Position numbers and translations under genes: made by a program. Below the pieces are notes generated by a model. It saw nothing but the letters and a program-made list of their open reading frames with translations. It was not told the DNA's origin and made no database searches. DNA of 64,000 nt from Shigella virus Moo19, in sequence record MZ358387; one strand, given 5' to 3'. Below, in pieces: positions 2,596 through 58,565 of this stretch; position 1 is the first letter of the stretch, and every line of letters begins with the position of its first letter.

Positions 2596-2608
2596 CATGC
2601 TCCGCATG
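2596..2608 (+). promoter_or_regulatory. Tri-loop hairpin catgc-TCC-gcatg (bottom strand GC-GGA-GC); candidate N4-type vRNAP early promoter hairpin
   Basis: Perfect 5-bp stem, 3-nt loop; same core as hairpins at 3584 and 7442; upstream of ORF 2652. Confidence 0.35.
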
Positions 2609-3013: not shown

Positions 3014-3032
3014 ATTAGATAGTCAATCTAAT
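3014..3032. promoter_or_regulatory. Palindrome attagat-agtca-atctaat containing 14-mer ttagatagtcaatc (second copy at 3529-3542)
   Basis: 7-bp inverted repeat read directly; lies just after a terminator and upstream of ORF 3063. Confidence 0.4.
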
Positions 3033-3528: not shown

Positions 3529-3547
3529 TTAGATAGTCAATCAAAAG
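3529..3547. promoter_or_regulatory. Second copy of 14-mer ttagatagtcaatc in an imperfect palindrome
   Basis: Identical 14-mer to 3015-3028. Confidence 0.4.
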
Positions 3548-3583: not shown

Positions 3584-3600
3584 AAGACGCTCCGCGTCTT
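3584..3600 (+). promoter_or_regulatory. Tri-loop hairpin aagacgc-TCC-gcgtctt (7-bp stem); candidate vRNAP early promoter hairpin
   Basis: Perfect inverted repeat; GC-TCC-GC core shared with 2596 and 7442. Confidence 0.35.
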
Positions 3601-6223: not shown

Positions 6224-6600
6224 AGACTATCTCATTAGGTGACGATACCAATGCTTTGCTGGGTGTAGCTGCACGTCCAATCATCATTGTTAATAAACAT
6301 CATGGTAAACCGGGTGAGTATATTGGACGTGGTTCACCATTGGGTAATCCATACCCAATTGGTGATAAATACAACCGTCAACAAGCTATTGCTATGTATC
6401 GTGTCTGGCTGCAAGAACAGATTGATAAAGGTAATCCAGTTGTACTGGATGAACTTAATCGTCTGGGTAATAAAGCCATTGACGAAAAAGGACTGGCCTT
6501 ACAGTGCTTCTGTTATCCGAAACCATGTCATGGTGAGGTTATTAAAGAGAAGCTCGTAGAGGCTATGTACAACTACTTTGTGGAGAATCCAAATGAGTAA
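6220..6600 (+). CDS. DUF4326-like protein (GRGSPLGNPY ... CFCYPKPCHGEV)
   Basis: Motifs GNP and C-x-C-x-P-x-P-CHG recalled as DUF4326 signature; ATG 6220 overlaps upstream stop. Confidence 0.5.
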   Translation: MKTISLGDDTNALLGVAARPIIIVNKHHGKPGEYIGRGSPLGNPYPIGDKYNRQQAIAMYRVWLQEQIDKGNPVVLDELNRLGNKAIDEKGLALQCFCYPKPCHGEVIKEKLVEAMYNYFVENPNE

Positions 6601-6787
6601 GCAATGTAAATGTGGTAAAGGCTATGTATCCCAATGGGATGATAAGTGTGGTAAATGCCGAACCAAGAAGGAACAGCGTGACCATCAAATAGCTTTAAGG
6701 GACTTAGACCTGTATATCGCAGGTCGTCCAGAATTTAATATGACTCCACAAGAAGCCTATAAAGGCTTAAGGAAACTGTACAAATGA
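6593..6787 (+). CDS. Small zinc-ribbon-like protein (CKCGKG...CGKC)
   Basis: ORF track frame; ATG 6593 with ggag RBS; two Cys pairs. Confidence 0.4.
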   Translation: MSKQCKCGKGYVSQWDDKCGKCRTKKEQRDHQIALRDLDLYIAGRPEFNMTPQEAYKGLRKLYK

Positions 6788-7441: not shown

Positions 7442-7460
7442 AGCTGCTCCGCAGCTTTTG
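7442..7460 (+). promoter_or_regulatory. Tri-loop hairpin agctgc-TCC-gcagct followed by TTTT; candidate vRNAP promoter hairpin or short terminator, 30 nt upstream of RNAP II genes
   Basis: Perfect 6-bp stem, TCC loop; same GC-TCC-GC core as 2596 and 3584. Confidence 0.35.
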
Positions 7461-13380: not shown

Positions 13381-13732
13381 ACCATTAGATATTAATGATA
13401 CCGGGCTGTGTGAAGCACTGCTCATCATGGGCGACGAAAAAGCCGTAGCCTGGGCATGGATTCGAGGTTATACCAAGAATCTGCTACAACAAATCGAAGA
13501 GTATCTCGGTGACACAGACTATAAATATCAGTCCAATGTCATTGAAGATGAATACGACTTAATGGAACTCGCTGACGGTCACCAAAATGGTAACTGGGGC
13601 GATTACATGATTGTCGGTGGACTCTTTGAAGGTGAAAGAATTGACCCAACTTTTTGGAACAAATATGCCCTCGTCCGTGGTATTCCTCGTGAAGAAATTT
13701 CAGAAAGTAATCTCTTCTCTTGCTCCTGTTAA
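13373..13732 (+). CDS. Hypothetical protein (119 aa)
   Basis: ORF track frame 13346-13732; ATG 13373 overlaps upstream stop. Confidence 0.4.
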   Translation: MSEPLDINDTGLCEALLIMGDEKAVAWAWIRGYTKNLLQQIEEYLGDTDYKYQSNVIEDEYDLMELADGHQNGNWGDYMIVGGLFEGERIDPTFWNKYALVRGIPREEISESNLFSCSC

Positions 13733-13743
13733 GGAATGAAATA

Positions 13744-14799
13744 ATGTCAAACATCGATTCACTTGTCGTGTGTAACTCAAGACAAGCTCGTAAATTTATC
13801 ATCCGTGCATTGCAGGCAGGTAACGTACCGTTCCTGACCTCCTCACCCGGTATGGGTAAATCTGCAATGATTCATAGCATTGCAGAAGAATTTGGCATGA
13901 AGCTGATTGACCATCGTCTGTCTACTTCTGCCCCAGAAGACCTGTCTGGTCTGCCACGTTTCCGTCCAGATGGACGTGCAGAGTTTGCACCGTTTGCAGA
14001 CCTGTTCCCACTGGAGGGTGACGAAGTACCCGAAGGTTATAACGGCTGGCTCCTATTCCTTGATGAGTTCAACTCAGCCAAGAAAGAAGTTGTTGCTGCT
14101 GCATACAAACTGATTCTCGACCGTATGACTGGTCAGAAGAAGCTGCATCCTCAAGTGATGATTGTATGTGCTGGTAACAAACAAACTGACCGTGCAATCG
14201 TTAACCCAATGGGTACTGCAATGCAGTCTCGTGTTGTGCATCTGGAAATGGAAATCAACTTCGACATCTTTGTCGAAGACGTAATGATTCCTCAGAAATG
14301 GGATGAGCGTTTAGTTGCATTCCTCCATGCTAATACGTCGTATCTGCATGACTTCGACCCGGCACACAAGAACAAAACGTTCTGCTGTCCTCGTACCTGG
14401 GACTTCGTTAACGAAGACCTAAAGAACCAGCCTCCTGGTGCTCTGCCTGATGAAGATTCTATCTTCTATGCTGGTCACGTCACTGCTGGTAAGGCAACTG
14501 AGTTCGTTCAGTTTACTCAGGTATATAACCAACTGGTCACTATTGAGCAAGTGGTTAAAGACCCTAAAGAGGCACGTTTACCGAAAGATAACAACCTCTG
14601 CTGGGCAACTGTTACCTATCTGGCTAATAAGACCACGGTAGATAACTTCCCGGATGTAGTTGAGTATATCCAGCGTCTGGATAAGATGACTCACCGCATC
14701 CTGTACTTCCGTACTGTGCATAAAATCGTACCAGATGTTACTGGCCTCCCTGAATGGCGTAAAGCTGGTGCAGAACTGTCTCGCTACCTACACGGATAA
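13744..14799 (+). CDS. MoxR-like AAA+ ATPase
   Basis: Walker A SSPGMGKS, Walker B LLFLDEF; ATG 13744 with aagga RBS. Confidence 0.75.
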   Translation: MSNIDSLVVCNSRQARKFIIRALQAGNVPFLTSSPGMGKSAMIHSIAEEFGMKLIDHRLSTSAPEDLSGLPRFRPDGRAEFAPFADLFPLEGDEVPEGYNGWLLFLDEFNSAKKEVVAAAYKLILDRMTGQKKLHPQVMIVCAGNKQTDRAIVNPMGTAMQSRVVHLEMEINFDIFVEDVMIPQKWDERLVAFLHANTSYLHDFDPAHKNKTFCCPRTWDFVNEDLKNQPPGALPDEDSIFYAGHVTAGKATEFVQFTQVYNQLVTIEQVVKDPKEARLPKDNNLCWATVTYLANKTTVDNFPDVVEYIQRLDKMTHRILYFRTVHKIVPDVTGLPEWRKAGAELSRYLHG

Positions 14800-14802
14800 A
14801 AC

Positions 14803-15975
14803 ATGAACCAGATACCTCAGCACACTTTGACCGACGAGCAACTCATGCGAGAGTATGACCGTACTCAGGCTCAGGCTTTTCTGGGCAAGAGTGCTGCGTT
14901 CTTTGGCTCACTACTGTGTAGTCTTAAATTCTCCTGGCAACGGGAGAATTGCGATACCGCTCAGACCGATGGTACTGAGCTTCAGTTTAACCCTGACTTC
15001 TTTGTCTGGTTAAAGCCTGAAACAAGAAAGACCGTGCTTATGCACGAGCTTTGGCATGTAGGTTATCTGCATGGTGTCCGTCAGGGTTCTCGTGACCCAG
15101 AGTTCTGGAACTATGCCTGTGACATCTACATTAACAACCAGTTAGAAGACGACGGCTACTCCTTCGAGGGAGTAGAGAACTGCTGGAAAGACCCAAAATA
15201 TAAAGGTTGGGTCGAAGAGGATATTTACGATGACCTTATGAAGAATCCCCACAAGAAGCCGAAGGCATTGGGGGCATTTGGAACAGGGTCTGGTGGAGAT
15301 ATGGTTAGCCCCACTTCGGGTTCATCTCCTGCAACTATCGTCAACAACGTAGTACGTGCACTGCAACAACAAAAACTGGCTGGTGGCACACTAGCTGGTA
15401 CTGGTGCAGGCCGTATGCAAGAGGTGATTACCCAATTCCTCAAGCCAGTAGTTCCGTGGCAGCAAGTCCTGTTCGACTTCTTCACTGACATTGATGACAC
15501 CAAGTACACCTGGGCAAGACCTAATCGTCGTTACCCGGATATGTACCTGCCATCTCTGGAAGATGATGAAGGTCGCTTACGACATCTGGCCTATTTCGAG
15601 GATGTCTCTGGTTCCATTAGCAATGCTGACTCTCTGCGTTTTAACTCAGAAGTGGCCTATGTTAAGAGCCAGTTTAATCCGAAGAAAATGACCCTACTCA
15701 CTTTCGATACTGTTATTCAGGACGAAATCGATATCACCGAAGAGGATACCTTTGAGGAGATTAAGATTACAGGCCGTGGAGGTACTTGCCTCAAGCCTGT
15801 TCGTGAGTGGATTATCAAGAACAAGCCAACTGCTGCTATCATCTTCTCTGATATGCACGTTGCACCTATGGAAGAACTCCCGTTTGATATACCTATCATC
15901 TGGGTTTGTTTGGGAAACCGACATGCCACCGTGCCTTTCGGTGAAATCTTACATATTGACCCAGGAATGAAATAA
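14803..15975 (+). CDS. VWA domain protein with N-terminal metallopeptidase-like HExxH (DUF2201-like)
   Basis: MIDAS-like DVSGSIS; HELWHVGYLH; typical partner of MoxR ATPases. Confidence 0.7.
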   Translation: MNQIPQHTLTDEQLMREYDRTQAQAFLGKSAAFFGSLLCSLKFSWQRENCDTAQTDGTELQFNPDFFVWLKPETRKTVLMHELWHVGYLHGVRQGSRDPEFWNYACDIYINNQLEDDGYSFEGVENCWKDPKYKGWVEEDIYDDLMKNPHKKPKALGAFGTGSGGDMVSPTSGSSPATIVNNVVRALQQQKLAGGTLAGTGAGRMQEVITQFLKPVVPWQQVLFDFFTDIDDTKYTWARPNRRYPDMYLPSLEDDEGRLRHLAYFEDVSGSISNADSLRFNSEVAYVKSQFNPKKMTLLTFDTVIQDEIDITEEDTFEEIKITGRGGTCLKPVREWIIKNKPTAAIIFSDMHVAPMEELPFDIPIIWVCLGNRHATVPFGEILHIDPGMK

Positions 15976-16481
15976 TGGTTTTAAACGGAAATGCTCTGTA
16001 TCGTTCGTCTCAACTGCTGGATGTCCCAGACCGTAAGGTATCCGAGCATGGTGTAAGCTATGGATTGGGTGAAGCTGGTTATGATATTCGTATCAAACAA
16101 GACATCACCTTCTATCGCTTATTTGGGTTGATTCCAATGGTGAAAACTGTCGATGGTGAGACGGTAACTCGTCGCTTCGGTAAGTTCGCATTGGCTTCAG
16201 CAATTGAGAAGTTCAATATGTCTCCGTCCTGTGTAGCTATCGTTCACGATAAGTCTACCTGGGCAAGACGTGCATTATCAGTGTTCAATACCGTGATTGA
16301 ACCAGGATGGAAAGGGTATCTTACTCTCGAACTGGTCTATCATGGTCGTAAGAAACTGCATATCCCGGCTGGTGCTGGGATTGCACAAGTGCTGTTCCAT
16401 CTGGTTCAAGAACCTGCCCATTACAATGGGAAGTATCAGAACCAGGAAAACCAACCTGTCGCTGCAAGAAGCAGCAAATAA
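15975..16481 (+). CDS. dCTP deaminase/dUTPase-fold protein
   Basis: Sequence resemblance to dCTP deaminase family (GYDIR...; beta-barrel motifs). Confidence 0.55.
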   Translation: MVLNGNALYRSSQLLDVPDRKVSEHGVSYGLGEAGYDIRIKQDITFYRLFGLIPMVKTVDGETVTRRFGKFALASAIEKFNMSPSCVAIVHDKSTWARRALSVFNTVIEPGWKGYLTLELVYHGRKKLHIPAGAGIAQVLFHLVQEPAHYNGKYQNQENQPVAARSSK

Positions 16482-16490
16482 GGAATTACC

Positions 16491-16688
16491 ATGTCTGTAT
16501 TTACTACTAAAGTTGGCGGTGTAAAAGTTACTGTTGTTGCTGCAAATGTTGCATTTGTACGCGATATCGAAGGTAAAGGTGAACTGAACTTCGTATCCGG
16601 TCTGCAACTGCAAACTGAAGTCGGTTATGACTCTGTACGTCGTAACGTAGCTAAAGCACTGTCAGGGGCTGAAGCAGAAGCTGAATAA
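16491..16688 (+). CDS. Hypothetical protein (65 aa)
   Basis: ORF track; RBS aagga. Confidence 0.4.
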   Translation: MSVFTTKVGGVKVTVVAANVAFVRDIEGKGELNFVSGLQLQTEVGYDSVRRNVAKALSGAEAEAE

Positions 16689-16708
16689 GTAGCAAGTGCT
16701 TACCTTAA

Positions 16709-16736
16709 TAGCCCTGCAATGCAGGGCTATTTGTGG
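16709..16736 (+). terminator. Rho-independent terminator (tagccctgc-aat-gcagggcta + ttt)
   Basis: Read directly. Confidence 0.6.
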
Positions 16737-16746
16737 AAGTTCCTTC
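16731..16746 (+). repeat. 16-mer ttgtggaagttccttc (copy 1), near-palindromic core ggaagttcc
   Basis: Identical 16-mer at 17055-17070. Confidence 0.6.
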
Positions 16747-16764
16747 AATAACTCAGGAGTCTTA

Positions 16765-17025
16765 ATGGAAGTTTTATCTGCATTACTGGTTCTGGTAATT
16801 GCTCTTACAGCTTATCTGTTACCAACTATCATCGCATTCGTTCGTGGTCATGCTTCTAAGTGGGGCATTTTTATCACTAATTTACTGTTGGGCTGGTCAC
16901 TGATTTTCTGGATTGTTGCACTGATTTGGTCACTGTCCAATAAAGGACAATCTCAGACTACAATCGTTAACGTTGGAAGTGGTAACAGCTACAACGTGTC
17001 TCAAACGAGTCAGTCTGATAAGTAA
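16765..17025 (+). CDS. Superinfection-immunity (T4 Imm-like) membrane protein
   Basis: Motif LPTIIAFVRGH...NLLLGWSLIFWIVALIW; ATG 16765 with aggag RBS. Confidence 0.6.
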   Translation: MEVLSALLVLVIALTAYLLPTIIAFVRGHASKWGIFITNLLLGWSLIFWIVALIWSLSNKGQSQTTIVNVGSGNSYNVSQTSQSDK

Positions 17026-17054
17026 CTAACCTAAGCATCATTTAAAAGTGGTGC

Positions 17055-17070
17055 TTGTGGAAGTTCCTTC
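17055..17070 (+). repeat. 16-mer ttgtggaagttccttc (copy 2)
   Basis: Identical to 16731-16746. Confidence 0.6.
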
Positions 17071-17098
17071 CAGCTCATTGCTTATCCATGCGTAACCC

Positions 17099-17127
17099 AA
17101 AGCCCACTTAATCGTGGGCTTTTTTAA
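17099..17127 (+). terminator. Rho-independent terminator (aaagcccac-loop-gtgggcttt + T6)
   Basis: Read directly. Confidence 0.75.
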
Positions 17128-17140
17128 TTTAGGTACTCTT

Positions 17141-17602
17141 ATGTCAGTCGTTAAAGGTTCATGGTCTGCCCGATACCCTAACTTAATGAATATACCCCGT
17201 GGCTCAGGTAAGTCAGTACTAGTAGGAATGGACTTTTCTAGTTTGGAAGACCGTGCAGCAATAGCTATACGTGATGGTAAATCTGCAAGAGTTATATCAG
17301 TATCGCCTACAGGTCGTATAAAAGATGACGCTATAGATGCGATGCTTATGCAAGCTCTACAACATAACCTGTCTGGAACAAAAGCTGACTGGTACACAGT
17401 AGATGACTTGTATACACCCCCTAAACCACACTGCATGTCCCAAGTGCATGACATTATTGATAGCTTCTGGTCTGCCCCGGCACTGGGATTATATGGGCAA
17501 TATATTGCTCAGTTAGACAAGAAGCCAAAAACCAAAGATGTTTTTAAAGGAAAAAGCACTACTCACCATTACCCCTGGTATAGAAGAGGAAGCAAATACT
17601 AA
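17141..17602 (+). CDS. Hypothetical protein (153 aa)
   Basis: ORF track frame; ATG 17141. Confidence 0.4.
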   Translation: MSVVKGSWSARYPNLMNIPRGSGKSVLVGMDFSSLEDRAAIAIRDGKSARVISVSPTGRIKDDAIDAMLMQALQHNLSGTKADWYTVDDLYTPPKPHCMSQVHDIIDSFWSAPALGLYGQYIAQLDKKPKTKDVFKGKSTTHHYPWYRRGSKY

Positions 17603-37484: not shown

Positions 37485-37566
37485 GGGGGAGTAGTCAAGC
37501 GGTCGAAGACGGCAGACTGTAAATCTGTTATCCCACACGGTAGTTCGAATCTACCCTCCCCCACCA
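37485..37566 (+). tRNA. tRNA-Tyr (anticodon GTA), 10-nt variable region, CCA encoded
   Basis: Hand-folded cloverleaf: acceptor GGGGGAG/CTCCCCC, T-loop TTCGAAT, anticodon loop CTGTAAA. Confidence 0.65.
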
Positions 37567-37567
37567 C

Positions 37568-37642
37568 GGTAAGTTAGCTAATTGGTGAAGCGGCTGACTG
37601 TTAATCAGTGATAGAGTGGTTCGAGTCCACTACTTACCGCCA
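37568..37642 (+). tRNA. tRNA-Asn (anticodon GTT), CCA encoded
   Basis: Hand-folded: acceptor GGTAAGT/ACTTACC, T-loop TTCGAGT, anticodon loop CTGTTAA. Confidence 0.7.
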
Positions 37643-37647
37643 CATTA

Positions 37648-37724
37648 CGGAGTTTAGCTCAGTCTGGTAGAGCATCTGCTTTGGGAGCAGAGGGTCGTAG
37701 GTTCGAGTCCTGCAATTCCGACCA
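37648..37724 (+). tRNA. tRNA-Pro (anticodon TGG), CCA encoded
   Basis: Hand-folded: acceptor CGGAGTT/AATTCCG, D-arm GCTCAGTCTGGTAGAGC, anticodon TGG. Confidence 0.7.
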
Positions 37725-37730
37725 AACAAT

Positions 37731-37806
37731 TAGGGGTTAGTTCAGTTGGTAGAACATCGGACTTTGATTCCGAATGTCACAGGTTCGAATCCTGTACCCC
37801 TTGCCA
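37731..37806 (+). tRNA. tRNA-Gln (anticodon TTG), CCA encoded; position 1-72 is T-T (unpaired)
   Basis: Hand-folded: D-arm GTTCAGTTGGTAGAAC, anticodon loop CTTTGAT, T-loop TTCGAAT. Confidence 0.6.
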
Positions 37807-37808
37807 AA

Positions 37809-37884
37809 TGCTTCATAGCTTAGTAGGTAGAGCACACCCCTGATAAGGGTGAGGTCATTGGTTCAAATCCAATAACGGACGCCC
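37809..37884 (+). pseudogene. tRNA-Ile(GAT)-like element with non-complementary acceptor stem (possible pseudo-tRNA)
   Basis: D-arm, anticodon arm (CACCC-CTGATAA-GGGTG) and T-arm are canonical, but 5' TGCTTCA cannot pair with 3' AACGGAC. Confidence 0.4.
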
Positions 37885-57329: not shown

Positions 57330-58565
57330 TTAAAGTCCACCGGGATTCGGCAGTTTAGCGAACTCTTCATCACTCATAGCGAGTGGATTAATGAAACGTT
57401 CTACTTTTTTAGGTGCAGCTCGACTTGGCGAAGCAGCACTTGCTTGTTCAGAGTGGGTCACCGTAGGTTTCGGTTTAACCACTCGTGTTGCTACTGCTGC
57501 ACGTTGAGCAGTAACTTCCGGCTTAGGTTCAACAGGTTTACCAGCCAGATGGTTAAATGCACCTTGTTTAGCAAGAGCATCACCAACATAGTTATAAGCC
57601 TGAATAAACGGTGTTCCGGCTGGAATCTGACCTAACATCTGAAGACGGTTAATCTCATTCGAGATAATGTCATAAATGCCATTTTCACGTTGAGACTGAA
57701 TCGTCTGGATTAAGCCACGATTCTCAAACAGTGCATTCTTACTGGCTTCATCCCATGTCTGAGAAATTACACCTAAAGTAGCTTGTCCTTCTGGGGTAGA
57801 CTTTAAATCGTCCAGTTCGGTTGCAAATGCTGCTTCAGTGTCAGATACACGGTGATTGCCTTTCTGGTAATTGATTTCCTCATCCATATTAATATCGAGA
57901 GGGTCAGTACCAGAATCTTTAAGCAACTTACGAATGGCTTCTGGGTTCTTCTTATCTAAGTCAATTAGATAAGACAGCTTGTCCTCATCCATCAGTCCGT
58001 TGTTTTCTAACATCAGCATCACCTTACGGTAAGGCTGTAATGCTTGCATCTTACGAGTGTAGTTAGCACCCATCTGCATCAGGCTAATGGCCTCCTCCGG
58101 TGATTGGGGAGTAATCATTTTACCGTTAGCTTTAAATGGAGCCATCAAACGTTCGTAACCAGCTTTATAGTCGAAGTCGGTTGGCAGACCTTCAGACTGT
58201 TTATCCTCTTCTGTCTTACTCTGGCCGGAGTCTTCAGTAGCAGGAGCAGCTTTAGTAATCGGCTTACCGTTACTATCAACTTCATTGGCGTCAACTTTAT
58301 CATCAACTTTATCAGAAGTTAAATTTTTTGCTGCATCTTCATCTACTTCAGACTGCTCAGAGTTATCTTCTTCTGGTTCGTCCGTTGTGGTTGTTTCTTC
58401 AGATTGGGTAGTAACTACTTCTTCTTGTTCAGTAGTAACGTCTTCTTCTGGGTTGTTCTGAGTGTCTTGCTCAACTTCCTCTGAAGGAGGAACAGACATA
58501 TTCAGAATCTCATCATCCGACATTGCGAGAATGTCGGAAGCCTGTTTAGTGGCTTCCGTAGTCAT
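57330..58565 (-). CDS. Acidic protein, possible scaffolding protein
   Basis: Very acidic N-terminal 140 aa; located between portal-side genes and capsid gene. Confidence 0.4.
   Translation of the reverse strand: MTTEATKQASDILAMSDDEILNMSVPPSEEVEQDTQNNPEEDVTTEQEEVVTTQSEETTTTDEPEEDNSEQSEVDEDAAKNLTSDKVDDKVDANEVDSNGKPITKAAPATEDSGQSKTEEDKQSEGLPTDFDYKAGYERLMAPFKANGKMITPQSPEEAISLMQMGANYTRKMQALQPYRKVMLMLENNGLMDEDKLSYLIDLDKKNPEAIRKLLKDSGTDPLDINMDEEINYQKGNHRVSDTEAAFATELDDLKSTPEGQATLGVISQTWDEASKNALFENRGLIQTIQSQRENGIYDIISNEINRLQMLGQIPAGTPFIQAYNYVGDALAKQGAFNHLAGKPVEPKPEVTAQRAAVATRVVKPKPTVTHSEQASAASPSRAAPKKVERFINPLAMSDEEFAKLPNPGGL

What the first reader, a model, noticed from the sequence alone, without database searches (positions are those of the whole stretch)
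16709..17127. Imm-like superinfection immunity gene flanked by identical 16-bp direct repeats
The 86-aa membrane protein has the T4 Imm-like motif (PTIIAF.RGH...NLLLGW...W.VALIW). It is bracketed by terminators and by two identical copies of ttgtggaagttccttc (16731-16746 upstream, 17055-17070 downstream; near-palindromic core ggaagttcc). The repeats could be promoter/operator copies or scars of a cassette insertion.
Basis: partly seen in the sequence, partly recalled or inferred. Interest (0 to 1): 0.55.

Follow-up and report, generated by a model that had tools for sequence, protein, structure and literature searches.

The report
Repeat-bounded superinfection-immunity gene cassette
A small membrane-protein gene of the T4 Imm (superinfection immunity) family sits in an N4-like Shigella phage as a 324-base segment bounded by two identical 16-base repeats, and a 97%-identical relative lacks exactly that segment and keeps one repeat; this is an ordinary but cleanly documented case of a phage gaining or losing an accessory gene.

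Summary
TTGTGGAAGTTCCTTC occurs exactly twice, at 16731-16746 and 17055-17070, flanking an 86-aa ORF (16765-17025). The ORF is a clear Imm_superinfect protein: PF14373 at 64 bits, and 100% identical to the annotated Imm of Shigella phage Moo19.

The repeats mark the edges of an insertion/deletion. Metagenome contig L243 is 97% identical to the left flank. It jumps from 16746 to 17055 with a single 16-mer, so exactly 324 bp are missing. Six more distant Gamaleyavirus-like relatives have the same empty site; N4 and the Klebsiella-type N4-like phages also lack imm.

The 16-mer is the 5' part of a resident hairpin (TGGAAG-TTN-CTTCCA). That hairpin belongs to an intergenic element between gp27 and gp28 whose core, CATTGCTTA plus a terminator, is conserved from N4 to this phage. 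Only the right copy is a complete, stable hairpin.

About 24 other imm-carrying relatives have a decayed left copy, so imm does not need the repeat. I found no sigma-70-like promoter at either copy. The hairpin lacks the GC-TCC-GC core of this phage's three virion-polymerase promoters. The motif occurs nowhere else in the window.

Verdict: a recombination scar around an accessory gene. The gene is already annotated; the repeat-bounded polymorphism is a modest new detail. Which event came first, and what the conserved hairpin element does, remain unknown.

The parts
16491..16688 (+). gp27-like gene (65 aa, N4 gp27 type); the conserved left neighbour of the site
   Evidence: ORF list; phrog_7594 E 3e-22; same gene order dCTP deaminase-gp27 in N4, G7C and others.
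16707..16731 (+). H1: 11-bp stem, 3-nt loop hairpin after gp27 (AATAGCCCTGC-AAT-GCAGGGCTATT); no T-run follows
   Evidence: Hairpin scan and RNA fold. Compensatory changes across relatives: 8 pairs in the alignment fold. Not called as a terminator.
16731..16746 (+). Left copy of the 16-mer: a truncated copy of hairpin H2, ending after CTTC
   Evidence: Homology to empty-site relatives ends exactly at 16746. Folds no better than shuffles.
16747..17070 (+). The 324-bp indel unit (equivalently 16731-17054): leader with Shine-Dalgarno, imm, trailer hairpin H1', and one repeat copy
   Evidence: Absent from L243, which is 97% identical in the left flank; its two alignments overlap by exactly the 16-mer. 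Also absent from Moonfish, phiG17, Jgk1, L129, L131 and L256.
16755..16759 (+). AGGAG Shine-Dalgarno, 5 nt before the imm ATG
   Evidence: Read directly from the sequence.
16765..17025 (+). imm: 86-aa Imm_superinfect protein with two hydrophobic segments (about 1-26 and 34-57) and a hydrophilic tail
   Evidence: PF14373 64.2 bits; phrog_1039 E 2e-33; 49% identity to T-even phage JS10 Imm; 100% identical to Moo19 Imm; hydropathy.
17035..17054 (+). H1': trailer hairpin after imm (GCAUCAUU-UAAA-AGUGGUGC; needs G-U pairs, so it reads as an RNA-level hairpin)
   Evidence: RNA fold. The stem is replaced by other complementary sequences in relatives: GTATCCC/GGGTAC and AATAGTCTC/GAGGCTATT.
17055..17070 (+). 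Right copy of the 16-mer, the 5' part of the intact resident hairpin H2
   Evidence: present in every relative of the Gamaleyavirus/Moovirus group, with or without imm.
17058..17072 (+). H2: TGGAAG-TTC-CTTCCA hairpin. Stem nearly invariant (first base T→G in four relatives, with its partner A→T in three); third loop base is C, G, A or T in relatives
   Evidence: loop variants; no covariation because the stem hardly varies.
17076..17087 (+). CATTGCTTATCC: its 9-nt core CATTGCTTA is kept in 15 of 16 aligned relatives from N4 to this phage (G7C: CATTACTTA); function unknown
   Evidence: Alignments. Not a recurring motif: it is the only exact + strand copy in the window.
17099..17128 (+). H3: intrinsic terminator (AAAGCCCAC-TTAATC-GTGGGCTTT then a T-run); stem sequence identical from N4 to this phage
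   Evidence: Terminator scan; invariant pairs.
17141..17602 (+). gp28-like gene (153 aa); a variable right-hand neighbour module
   Evidence: ORF list; phrog_12812. Replaced by another allele in L226 and L243, and absent in G7C, phiG17 and Moonfish.

Best explanation
The two 16-mers are the boundaries of a 324-bp single-gene accessory cassette. The cassette holds a Shine-Dalgarno, the imm ORF and a trailer hairpin. It lies in the gp27-gp28 intergenic region of an N4-like phage that is Shigella phage Moo19 or a very close relative (genus Moovirus).

The repeated sequence is not a signal brought in by the cassette. It is the 5' two-thirds of a resident hairpin, H2, which belongs to an intergenic element whose core (CATTGCTTA + terminator H3) is conserved from N4 to this phage. 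Recombination at that hairpin left one complete copy on the right, still joined to its 3' arm and the rest of the element. It left a truncated, non-folding copy on the left. The identical copies are also a ready substrate for precise loss of the cassette by short-homology recombination or replication slippage, which would regenerate the empty site seen in relatives.

imm most likely has no promoter of its own. It is probably expressed from the rightward middle transcript that reads through hairpin H1, which lacks a T-run, and ends at the resident terminator H3. Its product is probably a two-helix inner-membrane protein that blocks genome entry of a superinfecting phage, as T4 Imm does.

Shown here: the repeat, the family assignment, the exact presence/absence polymorphism, the hairpin anatomy, and the decay of the left copy in other lineages. 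Inferred: the direction of the event (insertion in an ancestor, later precise losses or replacements), the recombination mechanism, the route of expression, and the exclusion function.
For: 1. The repeat is exact, unique to this locus, and the longest exact direct repeat within 3 kb in the window.

2. There is an exact empty site in a near-isogenic background. L243 aligns to window 14732-16746 at 97.2% and then to 17055-17144. The two alignments share exactly the 16 bases of the repeat.

3. The same empty architecture, H1 then ATT then a single H2 then CATTGCTTATCC then H3, is found in Moonfish, phiG17, Jgk1, L129, L131 and L256. An equivalent imm-less intergenic region is found in the outgroups, the Klebsiella-type phages and N4. 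The nearest sequenced genome, Jgk1, is empty (82.6% identity over 80% of a 25-kb query).

4. The right copy is a complete hairpin and the left copy is truncated and unstable. The right copy is kept in all relatives. The left copy is reduced to TTGTGAAGAAAC... in about 24 imm-carrying loci.

5. The full left copy is kept in four independent Moo19-type sequences: the window, L226, L229 and L225. In L225 the two copies differ in the loop base, so they are 15/16 identical.

6. The trailer after imm resembles the gp27 trailer of empty-site phages (CTGA(A)TAAGTAACT(T/A)ACCT, shuffle p about 0.001-0.01 for phiG17). This suggests the original duplication was longer than 16 nt.

7. Sequence identity to G7C-type phages is mosaic and changes at this locus: gp27 35-50%, the imm 5' part 60-70%, the imm 3' part plus the H2 region 85-98%, and gp28 about 55%. 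The region is therefore a recombination junction.

8. The gene belongs to the Imm family by PF14373, phrog_1039 (filed under 'moron, auxiliary metabolic gene and host takeover'), and 49% identity to the imm gene beside gene 43 of T-even phage JS10.
Against: - Sixteen bases is short for efficient homologous recombination, and no recombinase or endonuclease gene lies next to the cassette.
- The polarity is not settled. L243 could have received an empty site by ordinary homologous exchange in the flanks rather than by repeat-mediated deletion; its gp28 module differs from the window's.
- The left copy and leader are 100% conserved in four Moo19-type sequences that differ elsewhere by 1-3%. That could mean the left copy has acquired a role in imm expression in this lineage.
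- Within the window itself, the flanks outside the 16-mer are not significantly similar (p about 0.3). The 'longer duplication' therefore rests on comparison with other phages.
- No cargo other than imm was seen at this site, so there is no sign of a general cassette system.
- Imm function is inferred from homology only.
Confidence: 0.8

Rival explanations
1. The two 16-mers are functional regulatory copies, a promoter or an operator for a phage or host factor, that control imm and the downstream operon.
For: Both copies sit in non-coding DNA just after a hairpin and before a gene or a conserved leader. The left copy and leader are identical in four Moo19-type sequences. In the N4 relative LUZ7, middle promoters are hairpins with a stem of at least 6 bp and a 3-4 nt loop (PMC9163698).
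Against: There are only two copies in 64 kb, even allowing 3 mismatches, and no other H2-like hairpin in the middle-gene region. No sigma-70-like site lies at either copy. N4-type RNAPII promoters are described as AT-rich, spanning -7 to +2, not hairpins (PMC4496689). The left copy cannot form the hairpin. About 24 imm-carrying relatives lack most of the left copy. The right copy is followed within 29 nt by a terminator.
Confidence: 0.07
2. H2 is a virion-RNA-polymerase-type hairpin promoter, and the cassette carries a copy of it.
For: The right copy has the N4 early-promoter geometry of a 5-7 bp stem and a 3-nt loop, with a purine at the loop centre on the template strand. N4 P1 also has a TTC loop on the coding strand.
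Against: The window's three early-promoter hairpins (2596-2608, 3584-3600, 7442-7456) and N4 P1-P3 all share a GC-T(C/T)C-GC core. H2 has G-TTC-C, with the closing pair reversed. H2 lies about 14 kb from the genome's left end (the first early hairpin is at 2596), in the middle-gene region. Early promoters are confined to the left end (PMC4496689). The left copy does not fold.
Confidence: 0.03
3. The repeats belong to an active mobile-cassette system, a Schitoviridae counterpart of T4 PeSL elements, in which repeat-bounded genes excise as mini-circles and re-insert at the hairpin.
For: The indel is exactly repeat-bounded in a near-isogenic pair. Module junctions and mosaic identity cluster at this intergenic region. 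PeSL recombination gives the same pattern in T4-type phages (PMC2839356).
Against: There is one site and one cargo only. The motif is not dispersed in the genome. No promoter half was detected. Most carriers have lost the left copy and so could not excise by this route.
Confidence: 0.09
4. The repeat is a chance coincidence or an assembly artefact.
For: None beyond its short length.
Against: By my own estimate, about 0.006 such pairs within 400 nt are expected by chance. The same two copies are present in independent assemblies L226 and L229. The indel boundaries in relatives coincide with the repeat to the base.
Confidence: 0.01

Closest known systems
T4 Imm / Pfam PF14373 Imm_superinfect (immunity to superinfection)
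   Same: Small protein (86 aa) with two hydrophobic segments. It scores well above the Pfam cutoff and is 49% identical to the imm gene beside DNA polymerase gene 43 of T-even phage JS10. It is carried by a strictly lytic phage in its DNA-metabolism gene block.
   Different: It is carried by an N4-like podovirus rather than a T-even myovirus. It has a hydrophilic Ser/Thr/Asn/Gln-rich tail of about 28 aa. No exclusion phenotype has been tested, and the phages it would exclude are unknown.
Morons of lambdoid phages (extra genes inserted between genes that are adjacent in relatives)
   Same: One accessory gene lies between two genes that are adjacent in close relatives. It is not needed for the lytic cycle, since several relatives lack it. 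PHROGs files the family under 'moron, auxiliary metabolic gene and host takeover'.
   Different: No promoter of its own was detected. It uses the resident terminator. Its composition deviates only mildly (39.8% vs 44.6% GC). It is flanked by a direct duplication of resident sequence.
PeSL elements of T4-type phages (promoter-early stem-loop cassettes that mediate modular shuffling; Arbiol et al. 2010, PMC2839356)
   Same: A short conserved intergenic motif next to a stem-loop flanks a non-essential gene. Recombination between the copies explains presence/absence between close relatives.
   Different: PeSLs are dispersed in many copies and contain a strong sigma-70-type promoter. Here there are two copies at one locus, no promoter was detected, and the motif is half of a resident hairpin.
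N4 virion-RNA-polymerase hairpin promoters and LUZ7 hairpin middle promoters
   Same: The right copy forms a 6-bp stem with a 3-nt loop, and sequence variation among relatives is concentrated in the loop.
   Different: It lacks the GC-TCC-GC core shared by this phage's own three early promoters and by N4 P1-P3. It lies in the middle region, does not recur, and is followed by a terminator.

Membership tests
T4 Imm / PF14373 Imm_superinfect | Matches the family profile above the curated threshold | tested here: met
   PF14373 64.2 bits against a cutoff of 27.9, E 9.7e-18, residues 17-57 covering profile positions 2-42 of 42; phrog_1039 'immunity to superinfection' E 2.2e-33.
T4 Imm / PF14373 Imm_superinfect | Small (about 80-90 aa) membrane protein with two hydrophobic segments | tested here: met
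   86 aa. Kyte-Doolittle 15-residue means reach 2.3-2.6 within residues 1-24 and 1.8-2.6 within residues 34-57 (hydrophobic segments about 1-26 and 34-57), separated by RGHASK. Topology was not modelled.
T4 Imm / PF14373 Imm_superinfect | Homology to an imm gene at the T-even imm locus | tested here: met
   49% identity over 61 aa, E 5e-18, to JS10 'immunity to superinfection', which lies directly after DNA polymerase gene 43.
T4 Imm / PF14373 Imm_superinfect | Blocks DNA entry of superinfecting phage | not testable with these tools
   Needs expression and efficiency-of-plating or DNA-injection assays.
Moron | Extra gene between genes that are adjacent in relatives | tested here: met
   gp27 and the H2-H3 element are adjacent in L243, Jgk1, L129, L131, L256, Moonfish and phiG17; the Klebsiella-type phages and N4 also lack imm here.
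Moron | Own promoter and own terminator | tested here: inconclusive
   No sigma-70-like site upstream of imm. Promoters for the phage's own RNAPII cannot be scanned with these tools. Trailer hairpin H1' has no T-run, and the resident terminator is 29 nt further on.
Moron | Composition deviating from the host genome | tested here: inconclusive
   Cassette 39.8% GC against 44.6% for the window; 7th percentile of 324-nt windows.
PeSL-type mobile regulatory cassette | Composite of a strong sigma-70-like promoter and a stem-loop terminator | tested here: not met
   Stem-loops H1 and H1' are present, but no promoter-like site lies at or near either 16-mer.
PeSL-type mobile regulatory cassette | Many copies dispersed through variable regions | tested here: not met
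   Two copies only at up to 2 mismatches; no other H2-like hairpin between 9 and 39 kb.
PeSL-type mobile regulatory cassette | Indels between close relatives bounded by the copies | tested here: met
   L243 compared with the window.
PeSL-type mobile regulatory cassette | Circular excision products | not testable with these tools
   Needs outward-facing PCR or long-read sequencing of phage DNA.
N4-type virion RNA polymerase hairpin promoter | 5-7 bp stem with a 3-nt loop and a central purine on the template strand | tested here: met
   Met for the right copy only: TGGAAG-TTC-CTTCCA, with template-strand loop GAA. The left copy does not fold.
N4-type virion RNA polymerase hairpin promoter | Conserved GC-rich heptamer (coding strand GC-TCC-GC) centred on the loop | tested here: not met
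   The window's three early hairpins and N4 P1-P3 all have GC-T(C/T)C-GC; H2 has AG-TTC-CT.
N4-type virion RNA polymerase hairpin promoter | [quoted passage not shown] | tested here: not met
   H2 lies about 9.6 kb to the right of the third early hairpin, among middle genes (dCTP deaminase, ThyX).
LUZ7-type hairpin middle promoter | Recurs upstream of several middle transcription units | tested here: not met
   No second instance in the window.
Transposable element with target-site duplication | Transposase gene or terminal inverted repeats inside the duplicated flanks | tested here: not met
   The 324-bp unit holds only imm and a trailer hairpin. A 16-bp duplication that coincides with a resident hairpin fits recombination better than staggered-cut transposition.

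The most novel reading that the evidence does not exclude
The 16-mer is part of a functional hairpin-containing element whose core (CATTGCTTA + invariant terminator H3) has been kept from N4 to Moo19 while the flanking genes diverged or were swapped; the H2 hairpin itself is clear in Gamaleyavirus/Moovirus and the Klebsiella-type phages but not in N4. The element might be, for example, a small or 3'-UTR-derived regulatory RNA, or a polymerase control site. Its hairpin would double as a preferred recombination point where accessory modules such as imm and the gp28 alleles are exchanged, possibly through excised circles. That would be a Schitoviridae counterpart of T4 PeSL shuffling.
Probability: 0.15. 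Interest if true: 0.55.

Novelty: new member of a known kind. Interest (0 to 1): 0.3.

Why it matters
The gene is already annotated in Moo19 and G7C-type phages, so nothing changes there. The new detail is base-level resolution of how an anti-competitor gene comes and goes in N4-like phages. The break lies inside a conserved intergenic hairpin. One lineage still carries both copies of the duplicated target, another has let the redundant copy decay, and a 97%-identical relative shows the exact empty site. This gives a simple experimental handle for measuring gain and loss rates of a superinfection-exclusion gene in a therapeutic-phage family, using junction PCR or deep sequencing for the 324-bp deletion or a circle. 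It also flags a conserved, unexplained intergenic element (H2, CATTGCTTA, terminator) worth transcript mapping.

Tried and rejected
- Scanning IMG/VR for the 16-mer with a free loop base gave 120+ hits. Almost all were noise, apart from a handful of known N4-like genomes (e.g. G7C, PhAPEC5); 15 specified bases is too short for that collection.
- CATTGCTTA as a recurring promoter motif was rejected: it is the only exact + strand copy in the window, and the near matches are scattered in coding sequence.
- A small-RNA seed pairing with a start region was dropped. The only exact complement (6598-6606, codons 2-5 of a small early gene) is within chance expectation, about 0.5 by my own estimate.
- Rfam gave no family at gathering scores in this region. 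The sub-threshold Phe/Trp-leader and MicX hits only reflect hairpins plus a terminator.
- A host origin for the element was tested: no match in 5,426 E. coli genomes.
- Covariation support for H2 and H3 was sought and none found. Both hardly vary (H3's core stem is invariant), so the counts equal the shuffled controls. Only H1/H1' covaries.
- A virion-polymerase promoter reading for H2 was rejected on the missing GC-TCC-GC core.
- A sigma-70 promoter at the repeats was not found.
- An extended duplication within the window itself is not significant (p about 0.3). It is significant only against the phiG17 and Moonfish trailers.
- More distant N4-like loci (54-62% dCTP deaminase identity, L139-L205) have no counterpart of the element.
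- Searches of the solved-structure sequences gave nothing for the protein.

Full report
**What the window is.**
The window has the gene order of an N4-like podovirus. It holds three early hairpins, the RNAPII genes, an AAA ATPase, a VWA protein, dCTP deaminase, ThyX, a replication block and a 3,493-aa virion RNA polymerase on the minus strand. [quoted passage not shown] The gene is listed as annotated in a paper on the Moo19 relative DSF2 (PMC13153029). In the phage collection searched, the nearest genome is Escherichia phage Jgk1, at 82.6% identity over 80% of a 25-kb query.

**Checking the observation.**
TTGTGGAAGTTCCTTC is present at 16731-16746 and 17055-17070.
- With up to three mismatches on both strands there is only one further hit, far away at 58385. 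Chance expectation is 0.76.
- It is the longest exact direct repeat within 3 kb in the window.
- The ORF runs from ATG 16765 to the stop ending at 17025, with AGGAG five bases upstream.
- It scores 64.2 bits on PF14373 against a cutoff of 27.9 and E 2e-33 on phrog_1039 'immunity to superinfection'.
- It is 49% identical to the imm gene that follows DNA polymerase gene 43 in T-even phage JS10.
- It has two hydrophobic segments and a hydrophilic tail.
- Homologues occur in 385 phage records, mostly T4-like Klebsiella and Escherichia phages, G7C-like phages and Acinetobacter phages.
- The downstream terminator is canonical (17099-17128). The upstream structure is an 11-bp hairpin with no T-run, and the scan does not call it a terminator.

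**What the 16-mer is.**
The right copy continues as TGGAAG-TTC-CTTCCA, a 6-bp stem with a 3-nt loop at 17058-17072 (H2). As DNA it folds at -4.0 kcal/mol (z -2.3). The left copy ends after CTTC and folds no better than shuffles. H2 is followed by CATTGCTTATCC and then the terminator H3.

This H2-motif-H3 block is present in every relative of the Gamaleyavirus/Moovirus group, with or without imm. The Klebsiella-type N4-like phages keep a hairpin of the same form (TGGAG-GTTA-CTCCA). N4 itself keeps CATTGCTTA and the terminator stem GCCCAC/GTGGGC unchanged, although the neighbouring proteins have diverged strongly.

Within the group the H2 stem is almost invariant, while the third loop base takes all four values and the first is T or A. 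Because the stems hardly vary, covariation counts say nothing for H2 and H3. The hairpin in front of H2 (H1 after gp27, H1' after imm) does show compensatory changes at eight pairs.

**The cassette test.**
- In the first search, Moonfish and phiG17 matched the window only up to 16746, the last base of the left repeat. In the second search Moonfish resumed exactly at 17055 and phiG17 at 17018.
- The alignment shows that Moonfish, phiG17 and Jgk1 have gp27, then H1, then ATT, then a single H2, then CATTGCTTATCC and H3, with no imm.
- A metagenome scan with the H2-CATTGCTTA pattern then found contig L243. It is 97.2% identical to window 14732-16746 and continues at 17055-17144. The two alignments overlap by exactly the 16 bases of the repeat.
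- So a near-isogenic relative lacks exactly 324 bp, which is one repeat plus imm.
- Further empty sites are L129, L131/L132 and L256.

**State of the repeat in other carriers.**
- Four independent Moo19-type sequences carry the full left copy and an identical leader: the window, L226, L229 and L225. In L225 the right copy has loop TTA, so the copies are 15/16 identical.
- All other carriers, about 24 loci including G7C, PhAPEC5, pSb-1, IME11, ECBP1, ST4, St11Ph5, Bp4, PGN829.1, PD205 and several metagenome contigs, have GGGCTATTTGTGAAGAAACTAACTCAACC... on the left. Compared with the Moo19 type, this looks like the 16-mer after loss of one G and of TTCCTTC.
- The right copy is always intact.
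- imm therefore does not need the left copy, and the redundant half-hairpin decays when it is not maintained.

**Signs of a longer original duplication, and of mosaicism.**
- The trailer after the imm stop (CTGATAAGTAACTAACCT) resembles the trailer after the gp27 stop in phiG17 and Moonfish (CTGAATAAGTAACTTACCT). The shuffle p value is about 0.001-0.01.
- The window's own two flanks are not significantly alike (p about 0.3).
- Identity to G7C-type phages changes sharply across the locus: about 90% in dCTP deaminase, 35-50% in gp27 (a different allele), 60-70% in the 5' part of imm, 85-98% from the 3' part of imm through H2, and about 55% in gp28.
- L226 and L243 switch to another gp28 allele immediately after H3.
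- The intergenic region is thus a junction where modules are exchanged.

**Most likely mechanism.**
An ancestor of the Gamaleyavirus/Moovirus group acquired imm, with its Shine-Dalgarno, by recombination at H2. The outgroups N4, the Klebsiella-type phages and L131 all lack it. The event duplicated resident sequence on both sides. The right copy stayed part of the functional element, and the left copy is a leftover.

In the Moo19 lineage the two identical copies can recombine or slip to delete the cassette precisely. L243 shows either that outcome or replacement by an empty allele through flanking homology; the data cannot tell these apart.

imm is probably read from the rightward middle transcript through H1 and ends at H3. 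By homology, its product is an inner-membrane blocker of incoming phage DNA. The repeat, the family assignment and the polymorphism are shown. Polarity, mechanism, expression route and function are inferred.

**Rivals.**
- *Promoter or operator.* This is unlikely. The motif does not recur. No sigma-70-like site is present. N4-type RNAPII promoters are described as AT-rich, spanning -7 to +2, and not as hairpins (PMC4496689). The left copy cannot fold and is dispensable in most carriers.
- *Virion-polymerase promoter.* This was considered because of the hairpin geometry. However, this phage's three early hairpins (2596, 3584, 7442) and N4 P1-P3 share a GC-T(C/T)C-GC core that H2 lacks.
- *LUZ7-like hairpin middle promoter (PMC9163698).* This cannot be excluded for the right copy, but it would be a single instance followed by a terminator.
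- *PeSL-like active cassette system (PMC2839356).* This fits the repeat-bounded indel. It does not fit the copy number, the missing promoter half, or the single cargo.
- *Chance or artefact.* Excluded.

**Novelty and score.**
The gene is already annotated. The kind of event, an accessory gene bounded by short direct repeats of resident sequence, is well known in phage genomics. The new detail is the base-level resolution, the three states of the site, and the fact that the break lies in a conserved hairpin element of unknown function. Interest is modest (0.3). The more novel reading has a probability of about 0.15. It holds that the conserved element is a functional RNA or DNA signal that doubles as a module-exchange hotspot.

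Noticed in passing
window 17055-17128; also L138 3256-3319 (N4) and L134 3175-3241 (Klebsiella-type): The gp27-gp28 intergenic block (H2 hairpin, CATTGCTTA, terminator GCCCAC...GTGGGCTTTTTT) is nearly invariant from N4 to Moo19, although the flanking genes diverge or are swapped. It has no Rfam family and no E. coli homologue, and its function is unknown. It could be a small or 3'-UTR-derived RNA or a polymerase control site.
   Followed up: partly
window 2596-2608, 3584-3600, 7442-7456: Three hairpins with the GC-TCC-GC core correspond to N4 virion-RNA-polymerase early promoters P1-P3 (N4 positions 90, 557, 4546). The canonical left end of the genome therefore lies near 2.5 kb in the window, so the sequence start is permuted relative to N4.
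   Followed up: partly
window 16766-16773: A third copy of TGGAAGTT, the 5' arm of H2, overlaps the imm start (A-TGGAAGTT). GTG-GAA-GTT in the 16-mer and ATG-GAA-GTT at the gene start read alike. There are 8 copies in the window against 3.1 expected. This could be a microhomology used in recombination, an alternative pairing partner for CUUC, or coincidence.
   Followed up: partly
window 17141-17602; L001 2626-2660 (G7C); L226 and L243: gp28 is a second variable module. L226, L243 and Jgk1 carry a different allele that starts right after the terminator. G7C, phiG17 and Moonfish lack the gene. G7C keeps what looks like its last codons (GGTAGTAAATACTAATG), suggesting a short-homology deletion.
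   Followed up: partly
window 16491-16688 compared with L133 3017-3217: gp27 exists as two very different alleles. The N4 type is in the window, Jgk1, L129, L131 and most Klebsiella-type phages. The G7C type is in all G7C-like imm carriers and in L135. The allele type is not strictly linked to imm presence.
   Followed up: no
window 16929-17088: The 3' third of imm plus the trailer and H2 is 85-98% identical to G7C-type phages, against about 80% genome-wide and 60-70% in the 5' part of imm. This suggests a recent exchange with a breakpoint inside imm. Some relatives (pSb-1, IME11, ECBP1) instead have a different C-terminal tail ending ...GSKAE, whose last codons repeat the end of their gp27.
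   Followed up: partly
window 3015-3031 and 3529-3545: A near-identical 17-mer, TTAGATAGTCAATCTAA, occurs twice in the early region. It is palindromic, with a 6-bp stem and a 5-nt loop. It was not examined.
   Followed up: no
window 37485-37873: A cluster of five tRNA genes lies on the + strand, just before the end of the rightward gene block.
   Followed up: no
window 13732-13746 and 15963-15977: An exact 15-mer, AGGAATGAAATAATG, occurs at two gene starts: the AAA ATPase-like gene and dCTP deaminase. It looks like a repeated overlap of ribosome-binding site, stop and start.
   Followed up: no
window 17027-17034 with 17131-17137: In the RNA fold, the trailer ACCUAA pairs with UUAGGU, the Shine-Dalgarno region of gp28, enclosing H1', H2 and H3. 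ACCU/AGGU pairing is possible in relatives too. It could mask gp28 translation on read-through transcripts. This was not tested.
   Followed up: no
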